A stretch of DNA of 40,000 nucleotides, taken from the NCBI RefSeq assembly GCF_024231755.1, contig NZ_JAAEQH010000061.1:37762-77761 (forward strand), written 5' to 3'. Positions 5,389-29,674 of the stretch are shown piece after piece. The notes under the pieces were generated by a model. The model had not been told where the DNA came from and did not search any database. It was given only the letters and a program-made list of their open reading frames with translations. How positions within the stretch are numbered: the stretch's first letter is position 1; each line of letters begins with the position of its first letter. The DNA comes from Neptuniibacter sp. Its GTDB lineage: Bacteria > Pseudomonadota > Gammaproteobacteria > Pseudomonadales > Balneatricaceae. The position numbers and the translations under genes were made by a program.

Positions 5389-6072
5389 TTAGCGGTTGTT
5401 TGTTCGCCCCCTAGGGGTTTTCTCTCTCGAGTCACTATGTCTAGAATTATGCCTAGAGTTATGCCTGTTGGAGGAGTTCGAGTGTTTGGTGCTCCGCCTT
5501 GAAGGTGAAGAGGGCTTCTTTGGTATATTGATCTGAACATCCAGTAGCTGACTTTCCCCTTGCTGAAGCTGATCAATAGTCCACTCTCCAATCGCATATC
5601 TGATTAACCTGAGAGTTGGAAAACCAACGGCTGCCGTCATACGACGTACTTGCCGGTTTTTACCTTCACTGATTTTTAGTTCTATCCAACTTGTAGGAAT
5701 GTTCTTTCTTTCCCTAATAGGAGGATTACGCTCCCAGATATCTGGCTCATTAATCAATTGAGCTTTTGCTGGGCGAGTCATGCCATCTTTAAGCTCTACT
5801 CCTTTGCGTAGAGCAGACAATGCTTCTTCAGTTACAGCCCCCTCAACTTGAGCCCAGTAGGTTTTCTCCATTTTAAACTTAGGATTTGCCAAGTAGTGCT
5901 GAAGAGGGCCTTCATCAGTAAGGATGAGCAAACCTTCTGAGTCGTAGTCCAATCTACCCGCAGCATAAAAACCTGGGTGATCAATATAATCAGCCAAAGT
6001 AGCTTTGCCATCATCACTGGTGAATTGGGTAAGTACCTGAAAAGGTTTGTTAAATAAAAGAATTTTCGACAT
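5389..6072 (-). CDS. rluE: 23S rRNA pseudouridine synthase RluE with a basic Ser/Arg/His/Asn-rich C-terminal tail
   Basis: RsuA/RluE-family motifs (LLFNKPFQVLTQFT, AAGRLDYDSEGLLILTDEG, GKNRQVRRMTAAVGFPTLRLIRYAIG). Sits next to icd, as in E. coli. Confidence 0.85.
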   Translation of the reverse strand: MSKILLFNKPFQVLTQFTSDDGKATLADYIDHPGFYAAGRLDYDSEGLLILTDEGPLQHYLANPKFKMEKTYWAQVEGAVTEEALSALRKGVELKDGMTRPAKAQLINEPDIWERNPPIRERKNIPTSWIELKISEGKNRQVRRMTAAVGFPTLRLIRYAIGEWTIDQLQQGESQLLDVQINIPKKPSSPSRRSTKHSNSSNRHNSRHNSRHSDSREKTPRGRTNNR

Positions 6073-6178
6073 TAAATCTCTTTGTAGTTTTGCTACATCT
6101 TTGCTTAGGCTGTTCTATACTGACTGAGAAGCCTGTCCATAGGCTCTTCTATAAAAATAATAACATTCTGCTGCGTAG

Positions 6179-7444
6179 ATGGAGTTATACATGGGATACA
6201 AGAATATCACTGTTCCTGCTGGTGAGAAGATCAGCGTCAACGAAGATTTTTCCCTTAATGTTCCAGACAATCCTATTATCCCTTATATCGAGGGCGACGG
6301 CATTGGTGTCGATGTTACACCGCCAATGTTGAATGTAGTAAATGCTGCTGTAGAAAAAGCTTATAGCGGCTCAAAAAAAATCTCATGGATGGAGGTTTAT
6401 GCGGGCGAGAAAGCAACCTCGGTTTATGATCAAGATACCTGGCTACCAGACGAGACACTTGAAGCCTTTAAAGAGTTTGTTGTAGGCATTAAAGGCCCCT
6501 TAACCACCCCTGTAGGAGGTGGTATCCGCTCCCTTAATGTAGCTTTACGCCAAGAATTGGATCTTTATGTATGTCAGCGCCCTGTGCGTTGGTTTAAAGG
6601 CGTACCCAGTCCTGTCATTAATCCGCAGGATGTCGACATGGTTATCTACCGTGAAAACTCTGAGGATATTTATGCTGGCGTTGAGTGGAAGGCGGGAACC
6701 CCTGAGGCAGATAAAGTGATTAAGTTCCTCAAAGAGGAGATGGGTGTTACCAAAATCCGATTTGATCAGATGTGTGGTATCGGGGTTAAACCTGTATCGG
6801 AGGAGGGCACCAAGCGTTTGGTTCGCAAGGCCTTACAGTACTGTGTTGATAATGATCGTGATTCTATGACCCTTGTCCATAAGGGCAACATCATGAAATT
6901 CACAGAGGGAGCATTTAAAGATTGGGGCTACGAGCTTGCAAAAGAAGAATTTGGTGCTGAATTACTCGATGGAGGTCCGTGGATGACCTTCAACAACCCA
7001 AACACGGGTAAACAGATCATTGTTAAAGATGTGATCGCAGATGCGATGTTACAGCAGATACTGTTGCGTCCTGCAGAGTATGATGTGGTAGCCACGCTCA
7101 ACTTGAATGGTGACTACCTATCAGATGCTCTCGCAGCAGAAGTTGGCGGTATAGGTATTGCTCCAGGGGCTAATCTTTCAGATAGCGTTGCTATTTTTGA
7201 GGCAACCCATGGCACTGCACCTAAATATGCAGGCAAAGACATGGTAAACCCAGGCTCATTGATACTGTCCGCAGAGATGATGTTGCGTCACATGGGCTGG
7301 ATTGAAGCAGCAGATCTGATAATTAAAGGTATGGACGGAGCTATCGCCGCTAAAACTGTAACTTATGATTTTGAGCGCTTAATGGACGGAGCGGAGCTAC
7401 TATCTAGCTCGGAATTTGGTGATGCGATCATAGAGCAGATGTAG
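6179..7444 (+). CDS. icd: NADP-dependent isocitrate dehydrogenase
   Basis: Strong resemblance to E. coli Icd ([62 protein letters not shown]). The start could instead be ATG 6191 (MGYKNITV...). Confidence 0.95.
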
Positions 7445-7511
7445 CTCGCTATTCTCGCCGGGGCAGATTCAGGTCTGCTCCGCACCTAATTCAAAAAAAT
7501 GTTACTTAAAC

Positions 7512-7540
7512 AAAAAAACCAGCTGGCTGGCTGGTTTTTT
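7512..7540. terminator. Bidirectional rho-independent terminator between icd and cspD
   Basis: AAAAAAACCAGC-tggctg-GCTGGTTTTTT. The stem has an A-run on one side and a T-run on the other, and sits between convergent genes. Confidence 0.8.
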
Positions 7541-7585
7541 GTTCTTACTGCATTAGTTTCGGTCCTTGAATGTTTATTCCTGTTT

Positions 7586-7798
7586 TTATTGTTTTTCGAG
7601 CGGCTTTATCTGAACTGCATGGGTTCCTTTTGGTCCCGGCTGCGTATCAAATTCCACAGACTGCCCAGCCTTAAGGCTTTTATAACCATCTACGTCAATC
7701 GCAGAATAATGAGCAAAGAGATCTTCTTCATGTTCGTCGGACAGGATAAACCCGTAACCCTTCGAATTATTAAACCACTTTACTTTCCCTGTCTGCAT
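7586..7798 (-). CDS. cspD: Cold-shock-domain protein CspD
   Basis: KVKWFNNSKGYGFI ... DLFAHYSAI ... GYKSLKAGQSVEF carries the RNP1/RNP2 CSD motifs. Divergent from clpS, as in E. coli. Confidence 0.9.
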   Translation of the reverse strand: MQTGKVKWFNNSKGYGFILSDEHEEDLFAHYSAIDVDGYKSLKAGQSVEFDTQPGPKGTHAVQIKPLEKQ

Positions 7799-8017
7799 AA
7801 CTAACTCCCGTCTCCAGTACTACATTTGGATTGCGAACCTGAACGCGCATCCCTTAACCTGCTAGAATAGAGGCTAAAGGTTGTTCTCAATGATGCAGGT
7901 ACAACGAGGGTCTTACCTATCCTGCTAAGTGTGATTATAGCACCTGAGACTAAAAGTGTGACAAGTGTACAATCACTGTTCATTAGTTAATTGTAGTAAA
8001 TTCCAGAAGATAATTAA

Positions 8018-8380
8018 ATGAGTGTTAATTTTGAACGTTACTCTATCCACATGTCTAATGAAGATCATGGTGATGAGTTTGAGCATGATCACGGCGTTGC
8101 AACTCAAGAAGCAGAGCCAGAAGTTAAGCGACCATCAATGTATCGAGTGGTATTAATGAATGATGATTACACGCCGATGGACTTTGTAGTGGCAGTGTTA
8201 ATGATGTTTTTTAGTATGGATCAGGAAAAAGCTACGCAGGTTATGCTGGCTGTCCATACCCAAGGTAAAGGTGTATGCGGAATTTTCACTCGTGATGTGG
8301 CTGAGACAAAAGCAGCTATAGTTAATCAATATGCGAGAGATAATAACCATCCACTGCTATGTGAAGTCGAGAAAGTCTGA
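8018..8380 (+). CDS. clpS: ATP-dependent Clp protease adaptor ClpS
   Basis: [27 protein letters not shown] ... [27 protein letters not shown] ... [10 protein letters not shown] closely parallels E. coli ClpS. Start may be ATG 8048. Confidence 0.92.
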
Positions 8381-8392
8381 AGAGGAAGCGTT

Positions 8393-10654
8393 ATGTTAAA
8401 CCGAGAACTCGAAGACACGCTCAGTGCAGCTTTCCAGGCCGCAAAGGAAAAGAGACATGAATTTATTACTGTCGAACACCTATTGTTAGCCTTATTGGAT
8501 AATTATGAGGCGCATGAGGTCCTGTCTGCTTGTGGGGCGAATTTTGACGGTATTCGTAAAAACCTTATAGAGTTTATAGAAGAAACAACTCCTCTATTAT
8601 CTGAAACACTGCCTGATCTTGATACGCAGCCCACACTTGGATTTCAACGCGTATTACAGCGAGCAGTATTTCACGTTCAATCCTCTGGAAAGAATGAAGT
8701 TACCGGCGCAAATGTGTTGGTAGCCATCTTTAGTGAACAAGAAAGCCAGGCAGTGTATATCCTGCAGCAGCATGGTATTGAACGCATAGACACAGTTAAT
8801 TTCATTTCTCATGGAATTAGTAAAATTTCAGAGAGTGAGCATGAGCATTCAGAAACACCTCTCGAGAATGAGGGGCTTGCTGAAGAAAACGATGACAGCC
8901 CACTGATCAAATATTCGATCAATTTAAACGTCGAAGCAGAAAAGGGGCGTATTGATCCCTTGGTTGGACGTGATTCCGAAGTGGAAAGGGTGGTTCAGAT
9001 TCTTTCCCGTCGCCGCAAAAACAACCCTCTACTAGTAGGTGAGGCAGGTGTAGGTAAAACAGCGATCGCTGAAGGCCTCGCAAAACTGATTGTTGAGGGC
9101 GAAGTACCTGAAATAATCAGCGAATCAGTTGTATATGCGCTGGATCTTGGTGCGCTATTAGCCGGCACCAAATACCGTGGTGACTTTGAGAAACGCCTTA
9201 AAGGCCTACTTAATGAAATTAAAGGCAAAGATCACGCAATTCTCTTTATCGATGAGATCCATACAATTATCGGTGCAGGCGCTGCATCTGGTGGCTCTAT
9301 GGATGCATCAAACCTGCTCAAACCATTATTGAGCTCCGGTCAGATTCGCTGTATCGGCTCTACAACTTTCCAGGAGTTTCGCGGCATCTTTGAAAAAGAC
9401 CGTGCGTTGGCACGCCGCTTCCAGAAAGTGGATGTTTTAGAGCCAAGCATCGAGGATACATACTCTATCCTTAAAGGACTGAAGCAGCGCTTTGAAGAGC
9501 ATCATGAAATTACATACAAAGATGAATCACTCAAAGCGGCAGCAGAACTGGCTGGACGTTATATCAATGATAAGCATATGCCGGACAAGGCAATAGACGT
9601 GATTGATGAAGCGGGCGCATATCAGCGCTTACTTCCGCAAGAACTGCGCAAATCAGAGATCGAGGTCACGGATATTGAGGCGATCGTAGCCAAAATTGCT
9701 CGCATTCCACCGAAAAGCGTGTCTGCATCCGATAAGACGCAGCTGGCTAAGCTCGACAGCAACCTGAAAATGGTTGTATTGGGTCAGGATGAGGCGATTG
9801 ATACGCTATCCTCAGCTATCAAGCTGTCACGAGCAGGCCTTAAAGAGCCTGACAAGCCTGTAGGCTGTTTCCTGTTTGCCGGACCTACCGGTGTCGGTAA
9901 AACTGAGGTAACAGCACAGCTAGCGCGAATCATGGGGATTGAGCTGGTTCGTTTTGATATGTCTGAGTATATGGAACGTCATACGGTTTCACGCCTTATC
10001 GGTGCGCCTCCGGGTTATGTTGGATACGATCAGGGCGGTTTGCTGACGGAAGCGATCACTAAATCACCTCACTGTGTTCTCTTGCTTGATGAGATAGAAA
10101 AAGCACACCCTGAAGTGTTCAATCTACTCCTTCAAGTGATGGATAACGGCACATTGACTGATAACAATGGTCGTAAAGCTGATTTCCGAAATGTGATCCT
10201 GGTTATGACCACCAATGCTGGTGCTGAGGACATGAGTCGCGCATCAATTGGTTTCACCAAACAGGATCATGCTTCTGATGGCATGGCGGCTATTCGTAAG
10301 ATGTTTACTCCTGAATTCCGTAACCGTCTCGATGGCATTATTCAGTTCAAATCGCTCACCGTCGATATTATTAAAGGTGTTGTTGATAAATTTATCGCAG
10401 AACTGCAAGTGCAGCTGGACGAGAAGCATGTGGTACTACACCTTGATGAAGCGGCTCGCGGTTGGTTTGCGGAAAAAGGCTATGATGAGCAGATGGGCGC
10501 GCGCCCAATGAAACGCCTGATTCAGGAAAAACTGAAAAAGCCTCTGGCAGAGATGATTCTTTTCGGGGAGCTGGCAGAAGAGGGTGGTGAAGTTGCAATC
10601 ACTGTTGATGAAGACGGTGAGTTGCAGGTTGAACCGATGAATAGCTGTGTTTGA
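8393..10654 (+). CDS. clpA: ATP-dependent Clp protease ATP-binding subunit ClpA
   Basis: Clp N-domain, two AAA+ modules (Walker [10 protein letters not shown] and GPTGVGKTE), and [10 protein letters not shown] at the C-terminus. Confidence 0.97.
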
Positions 10655-10758
10655 TTAGTATGAGCGGTGCCCTCACCGCGAAAGACTACCTCTGAGCAGC
10701 ATTGCTGAGGGGTAGCTCTATAATCATTCGGCGTGGGACACGCCTCCAACCAAGCAAC

Positions 10759-10787
10759 AAAAAAGGCAGCTGATTAGCTGCCTTTTT
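10759..10787. terminator. Bidirectional rho-independent terminator between clpA and infA
   Basis: AAAAAAGGCAGC-tgatta-GCTGCCTTTTT between convergent genes. Confidence 0.8.
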
Positions 10788-10818
10788 ACTTTCTGCAAAA
10801 CAGAAGAAGAAGCGAATA

Positions 10819-11118
<300 letters not shown>

Positions 11119-19685: not shown

Positions 19686-20966
<1,281 letters not shown>

Positions 20967-20985: not shown

Positions 20986-21015
20986 AAAAAACACGCTTTC
21001 GGGCGTGTTTTTTTT
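20986..21015. terminator. Bidirectional rho-independent terminator shared by serS and intI
   Basis: AAAAAACACGC-tttcgg-GCGTGTTTTTTTT. It lies 20 nt after the serS stop and 4 nt from the intI stop. Confidence 0.85.
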
Positions 21016-21019
21016 ATGT

Positions 21020-21988
21020 TTATAAATCCTCAAGTGGGCTTTTAACTGCATGTCCTCCCCGATTGAGAACATGGGTATAGATCTCCGTAGTTTGCACATC
21101 AGAATGTCCCAGCTGCTCTTGAACAGTTCTAATGTCTGCGCCTCGCTCTAATAGGTGAGTTGCAAAGCTATGCCGAAAGCTATGGCAAGTGGCCGGTTTG
21201 TTTATTCCTGCCTCTAATGCCGCCTTTTTCACCGCTCGCTGAAGGGTGCGGTCATAGATATGGTGACGCCTAACTTTTCCCTCACGATTATCAAGCGTAC
21301 GCTGTCGGGCAGGGAATAGGTATTGCCATGAAAATTCAAAAGGGGCATTAGGGTATTTCTTTGCCAGTGCATAAGGCAGATATACTCCATCCCATCGCTC
21401 TGCTTGATTATCTTCCTGAAAATAAGCCCTGCATATATCTAGCTGCCTTCTAAGATCAGCCACACAAGACTCGGACAATGTAGTGATCCTGTTTTTTCTG
21501 CCTTTGCCGTCATTTACTGCAACAGTCAGTCTTTCAAAATCTATATCCTTAACCCTGAGGCGACATACTTCCATTACGCGAAGGCCAGATCCATACATCA
21601 TATTTTCGCAAGATAGGTATTCACCCTGAAGCAGGGCAAACACTGATTTGATTTCCTCTTTACTAAGGACAACCGGAATTTTCTTAGGAGTCTTCGCGCG
21701 ATGAAAATCACCCAATTCAAGCAACGCCTGATCCCAGTTAAGAAACCTCTTATACAAATACATCAATGCGTTTAAAGCGGTCTTCTGAGTCGAAGGGGTA
21801 ACTTTCTGAGTAATTGCTAAATGCTCGAGGTATTGAACAATATGGTCAGCCGATAGATTGCTTGGGTGAGCTCGGTTGTGGAAGCGGATATATCCTAAAA
21901 TCCAATATATGTATGTTTGCTCTGTACGCTTGCTGTAATGACGGGCTCGAAGATGCTCACGAATAGCCTGCATAAAGGGAGAAGACAT
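21020..21988 (-). CDS. intI: Integron integrase IntI (tyrosine recombinase)
   Basis: Tyrosine recombinase boxes (GLRVMEVCRLRVKDID; HSFRHSFATHLL; LGHSDVQTTEIYTHV) plus the IntI-specific insertion LPYALAKKYPNAPFEFSWQYLFP...GKVRRHHI, which parallels IntI1 ALERKYP...VVRRHH. C-terminus HAVKSPLEDL. Confidence 0.95.
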   Translation of the reverse strand: MSSPFMQAIREHLRARHYSKRTEQTYIYWILGYIRFHNRAHPSNLSADHIVQYLEHLAITQKVTPSTQKTALNALMYLYKRFLNWDQALLELGDFHRAKTPKKIPVVLSKEEIKSVFALLQGEYLSCENMMYGSGLRVMEVCRLRVKDIDFERLTVAVNDGKGRKNRITTLSESCVADLRRQLDICRAYFQEDNQAERWDGVYLPYALAKKYPNAPFEFSWQYLFPARQRTLDNREGKVRRHHIYDRTLQRAVKKAALEAGINKPATCHSFRHSFATHLLERGADIRTVQEQLGHSDVQTTEIYTHVLNRGGHAVKSPLEDL

Positions 21989-22002
21989 AGTACATCCTTA
22001 TG

Positions 22003-22018
22003 CTGTTTTTTTATCCAG
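22003..22018. promoter_or_regulatory. LexA-box-like operator (CTG-N10-CAG) just upstream of intI
   Basis: tgCTGTTTTTTTATCCAGca has palindromic TGCTG/CAGCA arms, lies 15-30 nt upstream of the intI ATG, and sits just downstream of a TAAAAT -10-like hexamer on the intI strand. Confidence 0.45.
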
Positions 22019-22154
22019 CATTTTATCTGTGAATGGGTTGTGCAAGGATAGCAGGACAAAAGTGTAATTTTCTCCATGAAGGAGAAAACCTCAGGCAAGG
22101 AAAGCTTATGAATTTCAAATACCTAAAGCTCTCTCTTAATTTTTCTCTACGGAG

Positions 22155-22213
22155 ATATATGTCAAATTGTCGTAATTAATTGCGTCAATCTGTCATATAT
22201 TTAGCTGTTAAAT
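22155..22213 (+). other. attI recombination site (direct repeats plus simple site, crossover G^TTAAAT at 22207/22208)
   Basis: Direct repeats GTCAAattGTCg (22161-22172) and GTCAAtctGTCa (22184-22195) are followed by ATTTAgctGTTAAAT. GTTAAAT fits GTTRRRY and is the exact reverse complement of the cassette-1 R'' box ATTTAAC. Confidence 0.7.
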
Positions 22214-22229
22214 GTCCAGGGATGGTTAG

Positions 22230-22592
22230 ATGCCAGTTTCAATCTTACTTTGTTTATATGGTTGGCCTTTTCTTGTTGGACTGGGGTGTTACTTGGGGAT
22301 CGCCTCCGCAAAGGTTAGATCAGGTTTCCTAGGCTTATTAAAGAGCTATTTTTGTCTGCTGGTGGCAATCTCTCTTTCGTGGTTGGCAACTTTATTCATT
22401 GAGGTGTGGGTCATACCTCACTCAATTAGCGCAGAGTGCGTAAGTCGTCTGGATAGCTGCAATATTACACTGCTAGAATTTGGAGACTGGCTCGAAACAT
22501 GGAATTTTATAGTTTTAGAAATTTCTGCTGTTATGGCGTCCATTGTTTTAGCAGTGAAACAGGTAAAAAATTTAACAAAAACAGGCAGTTGA
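22230..22592 (+). CDS. Cassette 1: small integral membrane protein (120 aa, about 3 TM), unknown function
   Basis: ORF with AGGGA 7 nt upstream and about three hydrophobic segments. The stop lies inside attC1. Confidence 0.6.
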   Translation: MPVSILLCLYGWPFLVGLGCYLGIASAKVRSGFLGLLKSYFCLLVAISLSWLATLFIEVWVIPHSISAECVSRLDSCNITLLEFGDWLETWNFIVLEISAVMASIVLAVKQVKNLTKTGS

Positions 22593-22626
22593 CGCGCAAT
22601 GCGCTCAACTGCTGTAAGCGTTATGT
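22570..22626 (+). other. attC site 1 (57 bp)
   Basis: ATTTAAC-aaaaa-CAG[G]CAGTTGA-c-GCGCaatGCGC-TCAACTGCTG-taagc-GTTATGT. R''/R' boxes, 5-nt unpaired spacers, and an extrahelical G in L''. Confidence 0.85.
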
Positions 22627-22643
22627 TTCTTTAGGTCCTTACT

Positions 22644-22931
22644 ATGTTGGCTTTTAATTGTGATCCATTGATAGAGCAAGTTTTTACGGTAGGTTTTGTT
22701 TTATCAATCCTTGTAGTCATCGTTACAGGTTTTGTTGTTTTCTCAAATGAAACAAAACCAGAGAAAGGTAAATGGGTTCTTTTAGAAATACTGGGACCAC
22801 TTCATCCATTAGTAACAAATCGTTATTTGAATGAAAAAGGCAGGAAATGGAAAGCCTATGCTGGAATTGCAATTCTTTGTTTGGTTGCAAGCATACTAGT
22901 TTTGGAGTTATTGCCGTCATGCCAACCTTAA
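22644..22931 (+). CDS. Cassette 2: small membrane protein (95 aa, about 2 TM), unknown function
   Basis: ORF filling cassette 22621-22973, with two hydrophobic segments. No SD sequence, which is common for cassette ORFs. Confidence 0.5.
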   Translation: MLAFNCDPLIEQVFTVGFVLSILVVIVTGFVVFSNETKPEKGKWVLLEILGPLHPLVTNRYLNEKGRKWKAYAGIAILCLVASILVLELLPSCQP

Positions 22932-22979
22932 AACATAACAAAAAACATCAAAAGTCGCCCTACAGGCTTGGGCGTTATG
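22932..22979 (+). other. attC site 2 (atypically short, 48 bp)
   Basis: ACATAAC ... tgggc-GTTATGG. The R'' box is the exact reverse complement of the cassette-2 start GTTATGT. Internal pairing is weak (AA[GTC]GCC-ctaca-GGCTT). Confidence 0.6.
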
Positions 22980-22989
22980 GTATTACACG

Positions 22990-23757
22990 ATGAAAGATCG
23001 GCAGTTAATTTATAAGGTTATCCTCAAGGAAAACACAGAAATCGCCTGGAACAAAGCTGAAGAGACTTTAGAGTTTCGGAATTCTTCTGGAGAACTTTCA
23101 AGTAAAAATCAGATAAGTATTGGGGCAGGTTACACCCGAGAAGGAAAACAACCTAAGATATTGCGTGAAACGAATCATCCTGGTGGAACTGTCAGTTTTA
23201 CACCCAAGGAGACTGTGTATGATCGATATTTGGCGATCGATACAAGCCATGAAAAATTTGGCGAGAATCTCATATGTGTTACGGCCTGCTTGAGTATCGA
23301 GCAAGATATCGATAGTAGTGGTGAACTTAAAAAAGGAGAGTCAATAAGTATTCTCCAATGGCCCCGCCTTGTCTTTTTGACAAATGACAAGTTCAATCCA
23401 GAAAGATATGGCTGGTTTCGATTTATTGAGGCGCTAGAAAAAAGTGATGGCTTTTCGAAAGAGCGCACATATGGAGTTATAGTTGACAGCGATTTGGATC
23501 GACTTCCGGATATAAATTACAGAGCAGAATCCGTGTTCGAGGAATACTATTTACCTGAATGCCTATCTCTAATATATGCGAGTGCAGACACAGGGATGGA
23601 AAACATGAAAAACAAGCTTATCAAGCAAACTGATAAAGTTGCGGCGATTACCTTAAAACAAGCCCAAAAAGAGTTTGCTTCTTTTGAAAACTACGACTTA
23701 GAAGCAGATATTCACGTGCTGGGGTGCCCAAACGACCCAATCAAAGTGCATTTTTAG
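22990..23757 (+). CDS. Cassette 3: orphan cytoplasmic 255-aa protein, unknown function (candidate enzyme or nuclease-like)
   Basis: Single ORF filling the 885-bp cassette. No signal peptide or TM segment. Strand-plus-acidic motifs YLAIDTSH, YGVIVDSDLD and LIYASADTG. No family recognised. Confidence 0.65.
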   Translation: MKDRQLIYKVILKENTEIAWNKAEETLEFRNSSGELSSKNQISIGAGYTREGKQPKILRETNHPGGTVSFTPKETVYDRYLAIDTSHEKFGENLICVTACLSIEQDIDSSGELKKGESISILQWPRLVFLTNDKFNPERYGWFRFIEALEKSDGFSKERTYGVIVDSDLDRLPDINYRAESVFEEYYLPECLSLIYASADTGMENMKNKLIKQTDKVAAITLKQAQKEFASFENYDLEADIHVLGCPNDPIKVHF

Positions 23758-23778
23758 AGGTTTCTACCGTCGTATAAA

Positions 23779-23864
23779 CCATAACAAGGCGGTCAATTAG
23801 CCGAAAAAGCGTGGTTGCGTAAGCGAATCACGCTTTTGGAGGTCCAATTGCCTTGGCGTTATGA
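23779..23864 (+). other. attC site 3 (86 bp)
   Basis: CCATAAC-aaggc-GG[T]CAATT...AAAAGCGTG-loop-CACGCTTTT...AATTGCC-ttggc-GTTATGA. The R'' box is the exact reverse complement of the cassette-3 start GTTATGG. Extrahelical T in L''. Confidence 0.85.
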
Positions 23865-23886
23865 GCACGAGGCAGAACGAAAGCTA

Positions 23887-24084
23887 ATGGAGTCACTAGA
23901 AGAACACACAGTCTTATGCCCCTATTGCGGCGAAGCAATTGACGTACTTATAGATATACAGGAAGTCGGGGACGAATATATTGAAGACTGCCAAGTGTGC
24001 TGTAAGCCCATCATATTCAATGTAGCAACCGATTCAGCTGGCAATTTAACTGTAACAGTGCGAGATGAAAATGAATCACAATGA
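23887..24084 (+). CDS. Cassette 4: CPXCG-motif cysteine-rich (zinc-ribbon) small protein
   Basis: MESLEEHTVLCPYCGEAIDVLID...IEDCQVCCKPIIF has the CPxCG ... CxxCC pattern. Start trimmed from the track's 23815 (alternative start inside attC3) to ATG 23887. Confidence 0.7.
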   Translation: MESLEEHTVLCPYCGEAIDVLIDIQEVGDEYIEDCQVCCKPIIFNVATDSAGNLTVTVRDENESQ

Positions 24085-24090
24085 TTCAAT

Positions 24091-24144
24091 ATATAACAAG
24101 TAAAACAAGCCGCCCTATTAATGAGCGGCTGCTAGGCGTTAGAG
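24091..24144 (+). other. attC site 4 (54 bp)
   Basis: ATATAAC-aagta..CA[A]GCCGC-cctattaatga-GCGGCTG-c-taggc-GTTAGAG. Extrahelical A in L''. The R' heptamer is repeated immediately (GTTAGAG-G-GTTAGAG). Confidence 0.7.
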
Positions 24145-24195
24145 GGTTAGAGCCCTTTAACTAGCACAAAAAACATCTTTAAACAGGGATAGTAA

Positions 24196-24351
24196 ATGAT
24201 GAGTAGAGCCGAACTAGGTAAAGCATGGCGAGAGGGGTATTCTGCTGGTAAAGAGGGGAAACTTAGAGCTTCGAATCCATATTCTGGTATAGAACCCTCT
24301 TTAGCAAAAGAGTGGGACTTAGGCTGGAAAGAAGGGATGAATATCCATTAA
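24196..24351 (+). CDS. Rmf/CrpP-fold small protein (51 aa)
   Basis: Below the ORF-track size cutoff. ATGATG is preceded by AGGGA. MMSRAELGKAWREGYSAGKEGKLRASNPYSGIEPSLAKEWDLGWKEGMNIH fits the G(Y)xAG..G...(C/N)PY....W..GW.EG pattern of ribosome modulation factor / CrpP. Confidence 0.6.
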   Translation: MMSRAELGKAWREGYSAGKEGKLRASNPYSGIEPSLAKEWDLGWKEGMNIH

Positions 24352-24437
24352 GAGAGGATATAAAGGGCATAGAACCCTGGAACCCTTATCTTCAATCCAG
24401 TTTCAAATGTTGATGTTAGCTGAAAATGGAGTTGCAC

Positions 24438-24854
24438 ATGATCGAACCAATAAGCTCATTTCCTGTATTTACGGTTGAGAACCTAGATGCAGCCAAGTCA
24501 TTCTATACAGAGAATCTTGGCTTTGACGTTATCTTTGCGGGTGATTGGTATATCCACTTGATTTCAAAATCGGGAGTTCAGGTAGGATTCCTATTGCCTG
24601 ATCAACCTACCCAGCCTCCAATATTCCAAAAACCATACAGTGGTGAAGGTGTTATTTTTAGCTTGGAAGTTACAGACGCAGATGCGGCTTTCAATGAAGC
24701 AAAATCTAAATCACTAAATATTGTGCTTGAGCTGCGCTCCGAGGATTGGGGGCAACGTCATTTCTGTCTCCAGGACCCTAACGGTGTAAATATAGATATT
24801 GTTCAGTCCTTCGAGCCGACCGAAGAGTATCAGACTGATTATGTATCCTCATAA
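24438..24854 (+). CDS. VOC (glyoxalase/bleomycin-resistance/dioxygenase) family protein
   Basis: FPVFTVENLDAAKSFYTENLGFDV ... GVIFSLEVTDADAAFNEAKSK ... WGQRHFCLQDPNGVNIDIVQ is a typical VOC fold. Start set at ATG 24438 (GGAG 6 nt upstream); the track start is 24426. Confidence 0.8.
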   Translation: MIEPISSFPVFTVENLDAAKSFYTENLGFDVIFAGDWYIHLISKSGVQVGFLLPDQPTQPPIFQKPYSGEGVIFSLEVTDADAAFNEAKSKSLNIVLELRSEDWGQRHFCLQDPNGVNIDIVQSFEPTEEYQTDYVSS

Positions 24855-24892
24855 CATGATGCAGAGCTCTTTGGCACATCAGGGATAATCAT

Positions 24893-24970
24893 ATGAAGCG
24901 AAACGTGCTGATTGTAGGTGCCAGTCGCTTAAGTGGATTTATTCAGCTTCGCTTCATCCTTAAAGGTTGA
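24893..24970 (+). pseudogene. Truncated stub of an NAD(P)-binding Rossmann-fold (SDR/NmrA-like) gene
   Basis: AGGGAtaatcatATG opens a 25-codon ORF, MKRNVLIVGASRLSGFIQLRFILKG*. Its start mimics the MKxxVLIVGASGxxG dinucleotide-binding N-terminus, then it stops. Confidence 0.35.
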
Positions 24971-25030
24971 AAATCTCCTGCTAATCGCTGGACGCTCCAG
25001 GCGACTTATTTCACAAGGCTCACGAAAATC

Positions 25031-25576
25031 ATGAAAAACCTACATAGCACCGTGCTTTTTACCATTCTTGCAGTTCAGACTAGTTTTGTTTCAGCTGGTA
25101 GCAATCATGATCATCCACATACCCATGCAGACGGTCAGAGTCATTCACATAAGCATGACTATAAAACACCGCATGCAGGAATAGAGAAGCCGCTCTGGGG
25201 GCTCGACGGGATTGAGGCTTATGTTGAGCTTAAACTTCATGATGACAAAGGCGATCTGGAGCTTTGGTTAACAAATTGGAAAGAGATAACGCCCTATGAT
25301 CTTCCTTTAGGCACCCAAATCACTGTGACATTTACAGAGCTAGAAAATAAAACAGTGGAATTAAATGTGCGTAATAAGGCGAAGAATGAAGATGAAGATG
25401 GTCAGGTGAATATTCGCGATAATAAGACAAACTATTTCATTTTCCCTGGCGATACCGGAGTTGATGCATCTTTCTTGATCGGCAAAGGCTTTTCTTCAGA
25501 TGTTATCGTTTCGTTTGAAATTGATGGCGTGCGATATGCAACCAGCTCATTTACATTAACCCCGCATACTCACTAG
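25031..25576 (+). CDS. Secreted His-rich protein (putative periplasmic metal-binding), unknown family
   Basis: Signal peptide (..AVQTSFVSA|GS). The mature N-terminus SNHDHPHTHADGQSHSHKHDYKTPH has 9 His in about 25 residues. Beta-rich body, and the C-terminus ends PHTH. Confidence 0.6.
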   Translation: MKNLHSTVLFTILAVQTSFVSAGSNHDHPHTHADGQSHSHKHDYKTPHAGIEKPLWGLDGIEAYVELKLHDDKGDLELWLTNWKEITPYDLPLGTQITVTFTELENKTVELNVRNKAKNEDEDGQVNIRDNKTNYFIFPGDTGVDASFLIGKGFSSDVIVSFEIDGVRYATSSFTLTPHTH

Positions 25577-25591
25577 CACACTAGGCATCCA

Positions 25592-25885
25592 ATGAAAAAA
25601 GCATACTGCATCGTCAATATTGTTAAGATTCACCATCCAGAAAAATTCAAAGAATATGTCATTGGGCATGTGCCGACAGTAGATCAGTACGGCGGAAAAT
25701 TTCTGGTTAAAGGTGATCTAGGCGAGGTATTGGAAGGGGAGTGGCCAAATAACCTGATGGTGCTGCATGAGTTTCCGAGTATTGAGCAGTTTAAGCGTTG
25801 GTATGAGTCGGAAGAGTATAAACCCTGGAAAGAGCTAAGACAGAGCTGCGCTGATGTGAATGTGATACTGACAGAGGGCGCATAG
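25592..25885 (+). CDS. DUF1330 domain protein
   Basis: A 97-aa protein with Y.IV.I.I.....F.EY......V.QYGGKFLV.G....LEGEW......V.EFPS.E....WY.S.EY, typical of DUF1330. Confidence 0.7.
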   Translation: MKKAYCIVNIVKIHHPEKFKEYVIGHVPTVDQYGGKFLVKGDLGEVLEGEWPNNLMVLHEFPSIEQFKRWYESEEYKPWKELRQSCADVNVILTEGA

Positions 25886-25974
25886 GATGTGCGCATTGTA
25901 AGTAGATTAAATTTGGCGGCTTTCGAGGCAAGCAGCCACACTGTTTCTGACTACGGATTCGAATAAGGCTGAAA

Positions 25975-26004
25975 TAAAAAAACGGGGCATATAGCCCCGT
26001 TTTT
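25975..26004. terminator. Bidirectional rho-independent terminator (array end / purB)
   Basis: AAAAAAACGGGGC-atata-GCCCCGTTTTT. Confidence 0.85.
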
Positions 26005-26018
26005 CATGATCCAATTAC

Positions 26019-27422
<1,404 letters not shown>

Positions 27423-27558
27423 TTATACCTGAGTCGAATGCCGATTCGTAGTGCATGTTGAAGTTATTCTGGACACATCCCAAGTCCGTTTCTATTCTAG
27501 AGGTATCGACTTTAGTTTAATGCCGTGTTTTTGAGTTAATCTTTCGAGAGGATCAGAA

Positions 27559-27792
27559 ATGACTATCACAGTAACCGGCTCCTATGCCTCAAGTGACCAG
27601 ATCAAAATGGTCTTTGACGACCTAATAGCGAAAGGTATTCCCAGGGAGCAAGTTTTTATAGACACATACGAAAATGCTGTAAAAGTAATGACTGCAGACA
27701 ATATGGAGTGGGATATTGAGCGGATCTTACGAACGCATGGTGTGAGAAGGTACAAAATAAGGCGAAAGAGCATTTATACGCTGCTGGGATAA
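27559..27792 (+). CDS. Hypothetical small protein (77 aa)
   Basis: ORF with GAGGA 7 nt upstream, followed directly by a strong terminator. No family recognised. Confidence 0.5.
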   Translation: MTITVTGSYASSDQIKMVFDDLIAKGIPREQVFIDTYENAVKVMTADNMEWDIERILRTHGVRRYKIRRKSIYTLLG

Positions 27793-27826
27793 AAAAATGG
27801 ATAACGATTGTCGTTATCCATTTTTA
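27791..27826. terminator. Bidirectional rho-independent terminator (77-aa ORF / hflD)
   Basis: AAAAAAATGGATAACGA-ttg-TCGTTATCCATTTTTAT. Confidence 0.85.
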
Positions 27827-27830
27827 TATT

Positions 27831-28499
27831 TTACTGATCCAGCAACTTTCTAAGAGAAGGGCGTAGACGGGACTTAAAGAACAACAGATGCCAACGTTTA
27901 CCCCCTTTCTGCCGCCAGAGCATTGCGCTGCGAATACCGGCTAGGAGCAGAGCACGAATCTTAGCTGCATTCTCACTATTCTGAAGATGTCGCGGATCGC
28001 CTGTCACCTGAATACGAAAACTGAAACTGCTGATTGTATCCTGGTAAAGATTTGCGATATTGGCAATCACATTCGGATGGCAGTAGGCGCTTGGGTTATC
28101 GGTCGCTTCCTGATCTTCCGAGTTAAAATAACGCGCTTGCTCTGAAACCTGTGACAGGCGCTGCCCAACCGTTTTCATCATCTCAGGATCGGCGCTCAGC
28201 TTGCGCTCAAGGTGCATCATGCTCAGCGCGTAACGAATAACATCTTTGTTGTGTTCAGCGCGCGGCTTTTCAACCAGATCTCTAAGGTTTTGCAGACCAA
28301 GATGAAGATTATAGGCTAACTCTTCTTTACCACCGAAGATATCTTCACTGCTTTCTGGATTAAGCTGCATGATGCTGTAAACGGAGGTTTCCAAACTGTT
28401 TTGGGCAACCATGCCTCGTGTGGCGATTTGTTCCACTAAAGCGGCGGCCTGAAATAGCCCGGCCAATCCTAACGCTTGCTCATCGTGAACGCGTGACAC
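27831..28499 (-). CDS. hflD: High-frequency-of-lysogenization protein HflD
   Basis: LGLAGLFQAAALVEQIA..G, IRYALSMMHLERKL, RIQVTGDPRHLQ......IRALLLAGIRSAMLWRQ.GG parallel E. coli HflD. GTG start. purB-hflD-mnmA synteny. Confidence 0.88.
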   Translation of the reverse strand: MSRVHDEQALGLAGLFQAAALVEQIATRGMVAQNSLETSVYSIMQLNPESSEDIFGGKEELAYNLHLGLQNLRDLVEKPRAEHNKDVIRYALSMMHLERKLSADPEMMKTVGQRLSQVSEQARYFNSEDQEATDNPSAYCHPNVIANIANLYQDTISSFSFRIQVTGDPRHLQNSENAAKIRALLLAGIRSAMLWRQKGGKRWHLLFFKSRLRPSLRKLLDQ

Positions 28500-28561
28500 T
28501 ACTAAAACCTCTACTTACTCGTCTTTTTTTATAAATATTGTTCTTATTAATACGGTGCTTA

Positions 28562-29674
28562 TTAATTCTGTTCTGAATTTTTGCCGGTATGTTCAATCAC
28601 GCCGCCGCCCAGACAGACATCTTCAGCATAGATAACGACTGATTGCCCTGGTGTAATCGCACGTTGCGCTTCATTGAACAGAATTTTATAGCCCGATTCA
28701 CCGTGACGTTCGATAATACATTCCTGATCGGACTGGCGATAGCGGACTTTAGCTTTACAGTGATAGGGCAGCGCAGGCTCTTCATCGTTGATCCAGAACA
28801 GGTCGTCAGCAGTGAGCCAGTCTGTAAACAAGAGATCATTCTGCTTACCCTGAACAGCAATCAATACATTGCGCTCAAGATCCTTACCCGCTACAAACCA
28901 AGGCTCTTCAGGGTAGTTTTTCAAACCACCAATCTGTAAACCCTGACGCTGACCGATTGTGTAATACATCAAACCCGCATGTTCGCCGATCACATCACCC
29001 GTAGGGGTTTCGATTTTTCCAGGCTGTGCTGGCAGGTACTGCTTGAGGAAGTCACTGAAGCGACGTTCTCCGATAAAGCAAATGCCCGTACTATCTTTCT
29101 TATTATGGGTAACCAGATCATGTTCTTCAGCTAGCTTGCGGACTTCTGGCTTCTCCAGCTCACCAACAGGAAAGAGTGTCTTTTCGATCTCTTTCTGGCC
29201 AACCTGATGCAGGAAGTAGCTTTGATCTTTGTTGTCATCCAAGCCTTTTAACAACCGGGTTTTACCATCCCGCTCGCCGCGACGCACATAATGGCCAGTA
29301 GCGATTAGATCAGCGCCTAGCTCAATTGCATACTCAAGAAAGGCTTTAAACTTGATTTCCCGATTACACAGGATGTCTGGATTTGGCGTGCGTCCAGCTT
29401 TGTACTCTTCAAGAAAATGCTCGAAGACGTTATCCCAGTATTCTGCTGCGAAGTTGGCTGTATGAAGATGAATGCCCAGCTTGTCGCATACCGCCTGAGC
29501 ATCAGCCAGATCTTCTTTGGCTGTACAGTATTCAGTACCGTCATCTTCGTCCCAGTTTTTCATAAACAGGCCTTCGACCTGATAGCCTTGCTGCATTAAT
29601 AGCAGAGCAGAAACGGATGAATCGACACCGCCGGACATGCCGACGATCACTTTTGTATTGCTGTGATCAGTCAT
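28562..29674 (-). CDS. mnmA: tRNA 2-thiouridine(34) synthase MnmA
   Basis: PP-loop [37 protein letters not shown]. Confidence 0.96.

What the first reader, a model, noticed from the sequence alone, without database searches (positions are those of the whole stretch)
21020..24144. Chromosomal integron between serS and purB, with cassette boundaries that validate one another
ORF 21020-21988 (-) has the tyrosine recombinase boxes plus the IntI-only insertion (LPYALAKKYPNAPFEFSWQYLFP...GKVRRHHI, compare IntI1 ALERKYP...VVRRHH). An array runs divergently from it on the + strand. The boundaries check each other. Under the circular-cassette model, the first bases of a cassette (G^TTRRRY) are the other half of its own attC, so they should pair with the R'' box at its 3' end. 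That holds exactly three times in a row: attI GTTAAAT (22207) / ATTTAAC (22570); GTTATGT (22620) / ACATAAC (22932); GTTATGG (22973) / CCATAAC (23779). attC1, attC3 and attC4 also show 5-nt unpaired spacers. In each, one extra base sits on the L'' side only (CAG[G]CAGTTGA, GG[T]CAATT, CA[A]GCCGC). That is the strand-selection signature of attC sites, and it agrees with the + strand orientation of the cassette ORFs. Every cassette product is either unknown or from a poorly characterised family.
Basis: partly seen in the sequence, partly recalled or inferred. Interest (0 to 1): 0.75.

Follow-up and report, generated by a model that had tools for sequence, protein, structure and literature searches.

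The report
Small chromosomal integron in Neptuniibacter
This is a genuine but ordinary chromosomal integron, a gene-capture platform with an integrase, its insertion site and four captured gene cassettes, in a marine Neptuniibacter genome; it adds a member to a well-known class.

Summary
The finding holds. ORF 21020-21988(-) is an intact integron integrase: TIGR02249 scores 435 bits against a cut-off of 265, and it aligns end to end with VchIntIA (PDB 2A3V), including the IntI-only insertion. I built a covariance model from 31 attC sites of five related Neptuniibacter integrons, using no window sequence. attC1 scores 61 bits and the other three about 22 bits. The best score elsewhere in the window is 11 bits, and 13.6 bits in 68 kb of integron-free control DNA. 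Similarity to four related integron platforms, and to an integrase-less remnant, stops at 22210, inside the attI GTTA. The R''/previous-R' rule holds 7/7 at three junctions, as at 36 of 39 junctions in relatives.

Corrections: attC2 lies one base to the right of the stated position and has no L-box helix. attC4 has 8- and 6-nt spacers, not 5. The 1.8 kb between attC4 and purB (four ORFs) has no attC. The purB adjacency is a rearrangement specific to this lineage. This is a new member of a known kind, of low interest. Side notes: cassette 3 is a rare RNase H-like protein, and a conserved small ORF lies in attI.

The parts
19692..20966 (+). serS (seryl-tRNA synthetase), the conserved chromosomal flank on the intI side
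   Evidence: It is 90-93% identical in protein to SerS beside intI, or beside its remnant, in L001, L006 and L023. Synteny ftsK-lolA-rarA-crcB-serS is kept.
20986..21013 (+). Hairpin terminator between the convergent genes serS and intI
   Evidence: A 12-bp stem followed by a T run, found by the terminator scan.
21020..21988 (-). intI, an intact integron integrase of 322 aa
   Evidence: TIGR02249 scores 435 bits against a cut-off of 265. Pfam gives PF13495 plus PF00589. It aligns over residues 1-320 with VchIntIA 2A3V (E 8e-99). Residues 185-238 are absent from the XerA (PDB 4A8E) alignment. The catalytic R, K, HxxR, H and Y positions are conserved in that alignment.
22003..22018 (.). LexA-type box CTG-N10-CAG (CTGTTTTTTTATCCAG) overlapping the -10 of a PintI-like promoter (TTGCAC-17-AATGCT on the - strand)
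   Evidence: The box is conserved in position in L001-L004 and L006. It is a perfect CTGT-N8-ACAG in L002 and L004, and degenerate in L023, where intI is deleted. The pattern alone is not enriched in the window, so function is inferred.
21989..22213 (+). attI region, with the crossover at G^TT 22207/22208 (GTTAAAT)
   Evidence: It is 74-86% identical to L001-L004 and L023. Similarity ends at 22210 in every case. The first attC R'' of each array is complementary to its own attI GTTANNN.
22108..22179 (+). Conserved 23-codon ORF with the Shine-Dalgarno sequence AAGGAAAGCTTATG, inside attI and ending 27 nt before the crossover
   Evidence: The SD, the ATG and the reading frame (20-23 codons) are kept in the window, L001-L004 and L023. 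A role as a translational leader for cassettes is inference only.
22208..22620 (+). Cassette 1, with ORF 22230-22592 (120 aa, hydrophobic, no family)
   Evidence: It is bounded by the attI G^TT and the attC1 G^TT. There are no family hits.
22570..22626 (+). attC1 (57 nt), canonical: R'' ATTTAAC, 5-nt spacers, L'' with one extra G, R' GTTATGT
   Evidence: The covariance model R1 scores 61.3 bits, E 4e-15, on the bottom strand. The bottom strand folds at -14.2 kcal/mol, z -3.3.
22621..22974 (+). Cassette 2, with ORF 22644-22931 (95 aa, hydrophobic, no family)
   Evidence: It is bounded by attC1 and attC2. Its R'' ACATAAC is the reverse complement of the attC1 R'.
22933..22980 (+). attC2 (48 nt), degenerate: the R boxes and their flanks are conserved but there is no L-box helix
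   Evidence: R1 scores 21.7 bits, E about 1e-3, through a local end. The fold is weak: -5.7 kcal/mol, z -1.7.
22975..23858 (+). Cassette 3, with ORF 22990-23757 (255 aa, rare family, predicted RNase H-like fold)
   Evidence: Only 19 homologues appear among 5.8e9 clusters. A 57% homologue lies in another attC array, L020. The AlphaFold2 model has pLDDT 90.8. Foldseek hits are RNase H domains. D84, E138, D166, D200 and D215 are invariant.
23779..23864 (+). attC3 (86 nt), canonical R and L boxes, 5-nt spacers, an extra T in L'', and a long variable stem
   Evidence: R1 scores 21.8 bits. This is within the range of held-out true attC sites with long stems, 21.6-35 bits. The fold is -17.5 kcal/mol, z -2.9.
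23859..24138 (+). Cassette 4, with ORF 23887-24084 (65 aa from the first ATG inside the cassette; CPXCG cysteine-rich protein)
   Evidence: PF14255 scores 68.9 bits. The cassette is bounded by attC3 and attC4.
24091..24144 (+). attC4 (54 nt), atypical: an L-box helix with an extra A in L'', but spacers of 8 and 6 nt; its R'' matches the previous R' at only 5/7
   Evidence: R1 scores 22.4 bits, E 6e-4. The fold shows only the central 8-bp hairpin. GTTAGAG is repeated at 24146.
24145..25976 (+). Tail without attC: four same-strand ORFs (RMF-like 24196-24351, glyoxalase/Ble-like 24426-24854, His-rich secreted ORF 25031-25576, DUF1330 25592-25885). Origin is unresolved: either decayed cassettes or DNA brought in by the rearrangement.
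   Evidence: The best R1 score here is 3.8 bits. GC is 0.41-0.45, like the cassettes and below the 0.47-0.51 of the core. The segment has no counterpart in relatives. A homologue of the 181-aa ORF replaces intI in L023.
26019..27383 (-). purB, the chromosomal flank on the far side. Homology with relatives resumes at 25977.
   Evidence: The protein is 100% identical to NCBI Neptuniibacter sp. PurB. In L016, L017 and L019 the 3' neighbour of purB is an abhydrolase gene, not an integron.

Best explanation
The locus is a complete, sedentary chromosomal integron of a Neptuniibacter species (Oceanospirillaceae).

Shown. An intact integron-type tyrosine recombinase gene reads leftwards from 21988. 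Its attI site has its crossover at G^TT 22207/22208. A four-cassette array reads rightwards, with each cassette carrying one + strand ORF followed by an attC site.

Inferred from the known integron mechanism. IntI is made when LexA repression is lifted, because a CTG-N10-CAG box overlaps the -10 of its promoter. IntI binds the folded bottom (- strand) hairpin of an attC and recombines it with double-stranded attI or with another attC. This inserts circular cassettes at 22207/22208 or excises them. Cassettes are transcribed from the attI side.

Prediction from site quality. attC1 and attC3 should be proficient. attC2 (no L helix) and attC4 (8/6-nt spacers) should be poor. The likely mobile units are therefore c1 alone and c2+c3 together, with c4 probably fixed.

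History. The platform is ancestral at the serS locus in part of the genus, and cassette content has turned over completely between species.
For: - IntI-specific profile TIGR02249 scores 435 bits against a cut-off of 265.
- The protein aligns full length with VchIntIA, including the insertion that Xer recombinases lack.
- An independent attC covariance model gives exactly four hits with E<1e-3 in 40 kb. All are on the - strand, and all lie between attI and 24144.
- Negative controls reach at most 13.6 bits in 68 kb. Held-out true attC sites score 21.6-35 bits.
- Similarity to four related platforms, and to an intI-deleted one, ends at 22210.
- The R''/previous-R' rule is 7/7 at three junctions here and at 36 of 39 junctions in relatives.
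- There is one ORF per cassette, all on the + strand.
- No cassette is shared with L001-L006.
- The cassette 3 family occurs in another attC array.
- GC is lower across 22.0-25.8 kb.
- The intI-serS linkage is kept in L001, L006 and L023.
Against: - No cassette promoter (Pc) was found by the consensus scan.
- attC2 lacks an L-box helix and attC4 has abnormal spacers, so half the sites may be inert.
- Their E-values of about 1e-3 come from a roughly calibrated model.
- The LexA-type box has one mismatch to CTGT-N8-ACAG, and that pattern is not enriched in the window.
- Recombination activity was not and cannot be shown here.
- A second sample of the same species, L015, covers only the purB end (99.5% identical over 25366-29584), so within-species cassette turnover is untested.
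Confidence: 0.93

Rival explanations
1. It is a fossil integron. The integrase gene is intact, but the array is no longer exchanged and the attC sites are decaying. It behaves as an ordinary block of accessory genes.
For: attC2 has no L helix and attC4 has 8/6-nt spacers. The array is short. It is followed by 1.8 kb of cassette-like genes with no attC at all. A sister genome, L023, has already lost intI at this locus.
Against: intI is full length with all catalytic positions. attI is conserved up to the crossover. attC1 is a near-perfect site at 61 bits. Three 7/7 junction matches mean that R-box sequences have not drifted since insertion. No cassettes are shared with the relatives whose arrays were read (L001, L006, L023), which implies turnover.
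Confidence: 0.25
2. The array is really longer. The four ORFs at 24145-25976 are former cassettes whose attC sites have eroded, so the integron spans attI to purB.
For: The tail has the same strand, compact spacing and low GC as the cassettes. It has no counterpart in relatives. Glyoxalase/Ble-like and DUF1330 are, from my own knowledge, common cassette families. A 55% homologue of the 181-aa ORF sits inside the integron locus of L023. TCATAAC at the glyoxalase stop codon (24849) equals the reverse complement of the attC3 R'.
Against: The best attC model score in the tail is 3.8 bits. The TCATAAC match has a chance of about 0.1. The purB junction is a rearrangement breakpoint, so the tail may have come with the other arm.
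Confidence: 0.4
3. It is not an integron. A Xer- or phage-type tyrosine recombinase happens to lie next to REP-like palindromes or terminators.
For: Tyrosine recombinases and intergenic hairpins are common. attC2 and attC4 fold no better than shuffled sequence.
Against: XerC and XerD equivalog models score 143-145 bits, far below their cut-offs of about 330. The integron model is well above its own cut-off. The IntI-only insertion is present. The attC model, the attI homology break and the junction rule all agree.
Confidence: 0.01
4. It is a mobile integron (class 1-5 type) carried into the chromosome on a transposon or plasmid.
For: The array is small and the attC sites are heterogeneous, as in mobile integrons.
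Against: IntI is below 50% identical to every plasmid-borne IntI (IntI1 46.9%). No family or homology search between serS and purB turned up a transposase or tni gene. The same chromosomal site beside serS is occupied in at least four Neptuniibacter genomes.
Confidence: 0.02

Closest known systems
Sedentary chromosomal integrons of marine Gammaproteobacteria (Vibrio cholerae superintegron, VchIntIA/IntI4, PDB 2A3V; Shewanella and Pseudoalteromonas integrons)
   Same: The integrase aligns full length with VchIntIA (E 8e-99), including the IntI-specific insertion and the W and HH positions (EFSWQY, RRHH). intI and the array are divergent. attC sites are recombined as bottom-strand hairpins with an extra base on the L'' arm. 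A LexA-type box lies at PintI. The location is chromosomal and conserved within the genus. The cassettes are of unknown function.
   Different: There are only four cassettes, against about 180 in V. cholerae. The attC sites are heterogeneous (48-86 nt) rather than one homogeneous VCR family. Two of the four sites are non-canonical. The integrase is under 50% identical to the plasmid- or chromid-borne Vibrio and Pseudoalteromonas integrases in PLSDB.
Integrons of other Neptuniibacter genomes (L001 MAG BWSM_103; L002-L004 strains QD48_55, PT8_73, SY11_33; L006 N. caesariensis MED92)
   Same: They share the same intI lineage (63-92% aa), the same attI sequence up to G^TTA, the same attC architecture (TAACGCC... 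CTTGTTA on the bottom strand), and the same serS linkage in L001 and L006.
   Different: No cassette is shared. Homology stops at 22210. Their arrays are longer, at least 4 to 12 attC sites within the sequence read. In L002-L004 the platform is not next to serS. Only in the window lineage does the array abut purB.
CALIN (cluster of attC sites lacking an integron-integrase), as defined in PMC4889954
   Same: The sister locus L023 (AP025763.1) at the same serS site is one. It keeps the intI 5' remnant, attI and at least three attC sites, with no integrase.
   Different: The window locus keeps an intact intI, so under the same definitions it is a 'complete integron', not a CALIN.
Class 1 mobile integron (IntI1, attI1, Pc, ORF-11)
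   Same: The recombination logic is the same. A short SD-led ORF inside attI (22108-22179) resembles ORF-11 of attI1. That resemblance rests on my own knowledge and was not tested.
   Different: IntI is 46.9% identical to IntI1. There is no Tn402/tni, no 3' conserved segment and no resistance cassettes. Pc was not identified.

Membership tests
Integron ('complete integron' in the sense of IntegronFinder, PMC4889954) | A gene for a tyrosine recombinase of the IntI subfamily, carrying the IntI-specific additional domain | tested here: met
   TIGR02249 scores 435 bits against a cut-off of 265. Residues 185-238 align with VchIntIA and are missing from the XerA (4A8E) alignment.
Integron ('complete integron' in the sense of IntegronFinder, PMC4889954) | At least one attC site near intI, detected by a sequence-plus-structure model | tested here: met
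   Four hits of a model trained only on other genomes, at 61, 22, 22 and 22 bits. Background reaches at most 13.6 bits. IntegronFinder's own model could not be run.
Integron ('complete integron' in the sense of IntegronFinder, PMC4889954) | An attI site next to intI where cassettes are inserted at G^TT | tested here: met
   Similarity to five related platforms ends at 22210, inside GTTA. The attC1 R'' is complementary to the attI GTTAAAT.
Integron ('complete integron' in the sense of IntegronFinder, PMC4889954) | Canonical attC anatomy: R''/R' and L''/L' boxes, unpaired spacers of about 5 nt, and an extrahelical base on the '' arm of the bottom strand | tested here: inconclusive
   Met by attC1 and attC3. 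attC2 lacks the L helix. attC4 has 8- and 6-nt spacers.
Integron ('complete integron' in the sense of IntegronFinder, PMC4889954) | A cassette promoter Pc upstream of attI | tested here: inconclusive
   The consensus scan found no sigma-70-like site in 21989-22207 on the + strand. Manual candidates have poor spacing.
Integron ('complete integron' in the sense of IntegronFinder, PMC4889954) | Site-specific excision and insertion of cassettes by IntI | not testable with these tools
   This needs recombination assays or PCR for circular cassettes.
Sedentary chromosomal integron | Chromosomal location conserved among related species, with no transposon or plasmid backbone | tested here: met
   The serS-intI linkage is seen in the window, L001 and L006, and as a remnant in L023. 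The flanks are housekeeping genes.
Sedentary chromosomal integron | A large array of many cassettes with similar attC sites | tested here: not met
   There are only four cassettes, with dissimilar attC sites of 48-86 nt. PMC4889954 notes a continuum of array sizes, so this feature is a matter of degree.
Mobile integron classes 1-5 | An integrase close to IntI1-IntI5 and association with transposons or plasmids | tested here: not met
   The best plasmid-borne IntI is 48% identical and IntI1 is 46.9%. No transposition genes lie nearby.
SOS-regulated intI | A LexA box overlapping the PintI -10 | tested here: inconclusive
   A CTG-N10-CAG box lies at 22003-22018 and is conserved in position. It is a perfect CTGT-N8-ACAG in L002 and L004. 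LexA binding was not tested, and the pattern is not enriched in the window.

The most novel reading that the evidence does not exclude
Cassette 3 (22990-23757) may found a rare family of RNase H-fold DEDD-type nucleases. The family has 19 members among 5.8 billion protein clusters and no Pfam, PADLOC or PHROG model. It moves between integron arrays (the window and L020) and a prophage-like element (L022). It could be a new antiphage or anti-plasmid effector of the kind that sedentary integrons are thought to stockpile.
Probability: 0.15. Interest if true: 0.5.

Novelty: new member of a known kind. Interest (0 to 1): 0.2.

Why it matters
It adds a cleanly delimited integron lineage in the genus Neptuniibacter. 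My two literature searches found no paper that describes integrons in this genus.

The set of sister loci at one chromosomal site is useful as a small natural series of integron turnover and decay. It includes a complete integron, longer arrays, and an intI-deleted CALIN that still has attI.

None of this changes how integrons are understood. The cassette cargo (two small membrane proteins, an RNase H-like protein, a CPXCG protein) is uncharacterised and could repay experimental work.

Tried and rejected
- Rfam at gathering thresholds found nothing in the window; none of its 4227 families matched the attC sites.
- My first regex and stem attC finder was too crude. It gave many false candidates and missed attC2 and attC4, so I replaced it with the covariance model.
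- Exact-protein look-ups for IntI and SerS found no contig. The PurB look-up gave only a 4.2-kb contig of the same species covering the purB end, so within-species cassette turnover could not be tested.
- I searched the tail 24140-26030 for eroded attC sites with the model at E up to 10. The best score was 3.8 bits. A candidate site starting at TCATAAC 24849 was rejected because it has no complementary L boxes and no significant fold.
- PADLOC and PHROGs gave no informative hits for any cassette or tail protein.
- The promoter scan found no Pc.
- An IntI-mediated inversion as the cause of the purB junction was considered but not supported. The tail DNA is not the purB-abhydrolase spacer of relatives.
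- Literature searches for Neptuniibacter or MED92 together with integron found nothing relevant.

Full report
**Observation.** There are two one-base slips. ACATAAC is at 22933-22939 and GTTATGG at 22974-22980. The gene on the left is serS (19692-20966, +) and the gene on the right is purB (26019-27383, -). PurB is 100% identical to an NCBI 'Neptuniibacter sp.' protein, and the closest relatives of every flanking gene are Neptuniibacter.

**The integrase.** ORF 21020-21988(-) scores 435 bits on NCBIfam TIGR02249 'integron integrase' against a cut-off of 265. XerC and XerD equivalog models reach only 143-145 bits against cut-offs of about 330. Pfam sees PF13495 plus PF00589. Against solved structures it aligns over residues 1-320 with VchIntIA (2A3V, E 8e-99). 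The best Xer-type chain (XerA, 4A8E) aligns only as two pieces, 13-184 and 239-310. In that alignment the catalytic R, K, HxxR, H and Y positions match VchIntIA. The protein is below 50% identical to any plasmid-borne IntI, and 46.9% to IntI1.

**An independent test of the attC sites.** A scan of species-representative genomes with IntI returned 14 loci. Five are Neptuniibacter: L001 (92% identity), L002-L004 (78-79%) and L006, N. caesariensis MED92 (63%). All five have obvious attC arrays upstream of intI.

I aligned 31 of those sites (A1). RNAalifold recovered the R helix and an L helix with one bulged base on the 3' arm, with compensatory changes at 5 of 6 L pairs. I built covariance model R1 from that alignment, using no window sequence.

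With filters off, over both strands of the 40 kb, R1 gives four hits with E<1e-3:
- 22570-22626, 61.3 bits, E 4e-15
- 22933-22980, 21.7 bits
- 23779-23864, 21.8 bits
- 24091-24144, 22.4 bits

All four are on the - strand, which is the bottom strand of a + strand array. The next best hit in the window scores 11 bits at E 1. In 68 kb of integron-free Neptuniibacter DNA the best score is 13.6 bits. True attC sites of the relatives that were not in the training set, which have long variable stems, score 21.6-35 bits. The three weaker window hits therefore sit in the range of real sites and well above background. E-values from this model are rough, as the tool states.

**Site anatomy.**

| Site | Length | Spacers | L box | Bottom-strand fold |
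|---|---|---|---|---|
| attC1 | 57 nt | 5 nt both sides | CAG[G]CAGTTGA / TCAACTGCTG, extra base on the '' arm | -14.2 kcal/mol, z -3.3 |
| attC2 | 48 nt | none definable | no L''/L' helix; only the TAACGCCCAA and TTTTTTGTTAT ends resemble the family | -5.7 kcal/mol, z -1.7 |
| attC3 | 86 nt | AAGGC and TTGGC (5 nt each) | GG[T]CAATT / AATTGCC, long variable stem | -17.5 kcal/mol, z -2.9 |
| attC4 | 54 nt | 8 nt and 6 nt | CA[A]GCCGC / GCGGCTG, extra base present | z -1.1 |

attC1 is textbook and attC3 is canonical. My inference is that attC1 and attC3 are good substrates and that attC2 and attC4 are poor ones.

**attI and the junction rule.** BLASTN similarity between the window and L001-L004 runs through intI and the intergenic region and stops at 22210 in all four. 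The alignment shows a shared ...GTCAATCTGTCATATATTTAGCTGTTA followed by unrelated sequence. The same is true of L023. This places the crossover at G^TT 22207/22208 without using the attC sites.

It holds 7/7 at attI>attC1, attC1>attC2 and attC2>attC3, and 5/7 at attC3>attC4. In the relatives it is 7/7 at 36 of 39 consecutive junctions, while a site matches its own R' 7/7 at only 6 of 39. From pooled triplet frequencies the chance of a 7/7 match is about 0.10, or about 1e-3 for three in a row.

Each cassette holds one + strand ORF:
- c1: 22230-22592
- c2: 22644-22931
- c3: 22990-23757
- c4: from the first in-cassette ATG, 23887-24084

**Regulation (inferred).** On the intI strand there is a TTGCAC-17-AATGCT promoter-like site. 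Its -10 overlaps CTGGATAAAAAAACAG, a CTG-N10-CAG LexA-type box (22003-22018). The box is conserved in position in all relatives and is a perfect CTGT-N8-ACAG in L002 and L004. It is degenerate in L023, which has lost intI. The bare pattern is not enriched in the window. The argument therefore rests on position and conservation, plus the known SOS control of integron integrases, which is my own knowledge. No Pc was found.

A 20-23-codon ORF with the Shine-Dalgarno sequence AAGGAAAGCTnATG (window 22108-22179) is kept in frame in six genomes. It may act as a translational leader, as ORF-11 does in attI1. That comparison is from my own knowledge and is untested. Alternatively, it may only reflect a spacing constraint within attI.

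**The far end.** After attC4 come four more + strand ORFs:
- RMF-like, PF04957
- glyoxalase/Ble-like
- a His-rich secreted 181-aa protein with no family
- DUF1330

No attC is present in this stretch. The best R1 score there is 3.8 bits. Homology with relatives resumes only at 25977, at the purB terminator. In a 96%-PurB contig (L016), in MED92 (L017) and in SY11_33 (L019), the 3' neighbour of purB is abhydrolase-SpoU-JmjC. In MED92, purB lies about 320 kb from serS-intI on the same scaffold and in the opposite relative orientation.

The serS|purB framing is therefore a lineage-specific, inversion-like rearrangement with a breakpoint between 24145 and 25976. The whole segment 22211-25976 has lower GC (0.37-0.45) than the core (0.47-0.51). 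Whether the tail is made of decayed cassettes is open; I put it at about 0.4.

One clue bears on this. A 55% homologue of the 181-aa ORF sits directly after serS in AP025763.1 (L023). There it replaces all but the first 60 or so nt of intI, while attI and at least three attC sites (45-58 bits) remain. That locus is a CALIN with an integrase remnant.

**Cassette cargo.** c1 and c2 are small hydrophobic proteins with no family. c4 is a CPXCG cysteine-rich protein. c3 belongs to a very rare family, with 19 hits among 5.8e9 clusters. A 57% homologue lies immediately after an attC in another array, L020. Others lie in a prophage-like contig (L022) and at an ordinary chromosomal site (L021). An AlphaFold2 model built on the 19-sequence alignment has pLDDT 90.8. 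Its C-terminal 170 or so residues match RNase H domains weakly but consistently: PDB E 4e-3 and upward, and BFVD E 3e-4 and upward. The invariant residues D84, E138, D166 and D200/D215 fall in the order expected for a DEDD active site; that last point is inference.

**Comparison and verdict.** By the IntegronFinder definitions (PMC4889954) this is a 'complete integron'. It works like, and is a member of, the chromosomal integrons of marine Gammaproteobacteria. It differs from the classic superintegrons in being small, with heterogeneous and partly degenerate attC sites. Two literature searches found no description of Neptuniibacter integrons. The element is nonetheless of a thoroughly known kind, and standard tools would flag it. 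Novelty is 'new member of a known kind' and interest is low.

Noticed in passing
window 22108-22179 (+); also L001-L004 and L023 attI regions: A 20-23-codon ORF with a strong, invariant Shine-Dalgarno sequence (AAGGAAAGCTnATG) lies inside the attI region and ends 27-36 nt before the G^TT crossover. It is kept in frame in six genomes although its middle has diverged. It may be a translational leader for cassettes that lack their own start signals.
   Followed up: partly
L023 (AP025763.1, GCA_027943745.1) 5842-8476: At the same serS site, intI is deleted apart from about 60 nt of its 5' end. It is replaced by a 192-aa homologue (55%) of the window's ORF 25031-25576. attI (77% identical, ending at the same GTTA) and at least three strong attC sites remain. 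This is a CALIN caught with its integrase remnant.
   Followed up: partly
window 24145-25976 and 25977-26018; L016, L017, L019: The array tail is joined to the purB terminator only in this lineage. Relatives have purB-abhydrolase-SpoU-JmjC. In MED92, purB is about 320 kb from serS-intI, which implies an inversion-like rearrangement with one breakpoint at the distal end of the array.
   Followed up: partly
window 22990-23757 (cassette 3); L020 3331-4098; L022 5927-6721: This rare 255-aa family (19 members found) has a confident predicted structure with an RNase H-like core and invariant D/E/D/D residues. It occurs in a second attC array and in a prophage-like contig that also encodes GmrSD- and OLD-family (defence-type) proteins.
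   Followed up: partly
L006 (N. caesariensis MED92) 10001-10969 versus window 21020-21988: The integrase of MED92 at the same locus is only 63% identical in protein and 66% in DNA (60% of the gene alignable), although serS next to it is 84% identical in DNA. In L001, intI (80%) and serS (84%) diverge together. Either the MED92 platform evolved fast or it was replaced.
   Followed up: no
window 24138-24152 and 24849-24855: The R' core GTTAGAG of attC4 is directly repeated one base later (GTTAGAGgGTTAGAG). TCATAAC at the stop codon of the glyoxalase ORF is the exact reverse complement of the attC3 R' GTTATGA, with a chance of about 0.1, but no attC structure follows it.
   Followed up: partly
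L002-L004 (Neptuniibacter sp. QD48_55, PT8_73, SY11_33): These complete genomes carry the same intI/attI lineage (78-79% aa) with arrays of 4-12 attC sites, but none of the window's serS-side genes lie within 10 kb. The platform, or its flank, has therefore moved within the genus.
   Followed up: no
window 24196-24351: A 51-aa ribosome-modulation-factor-like ORF (Pfam RMF 41 bits; NCBIfam 31 bits, below its cut-off of 40) sits in the low-GC tail rather than in a core context. It could be an accessory copy of RMF.
   Followed up: no
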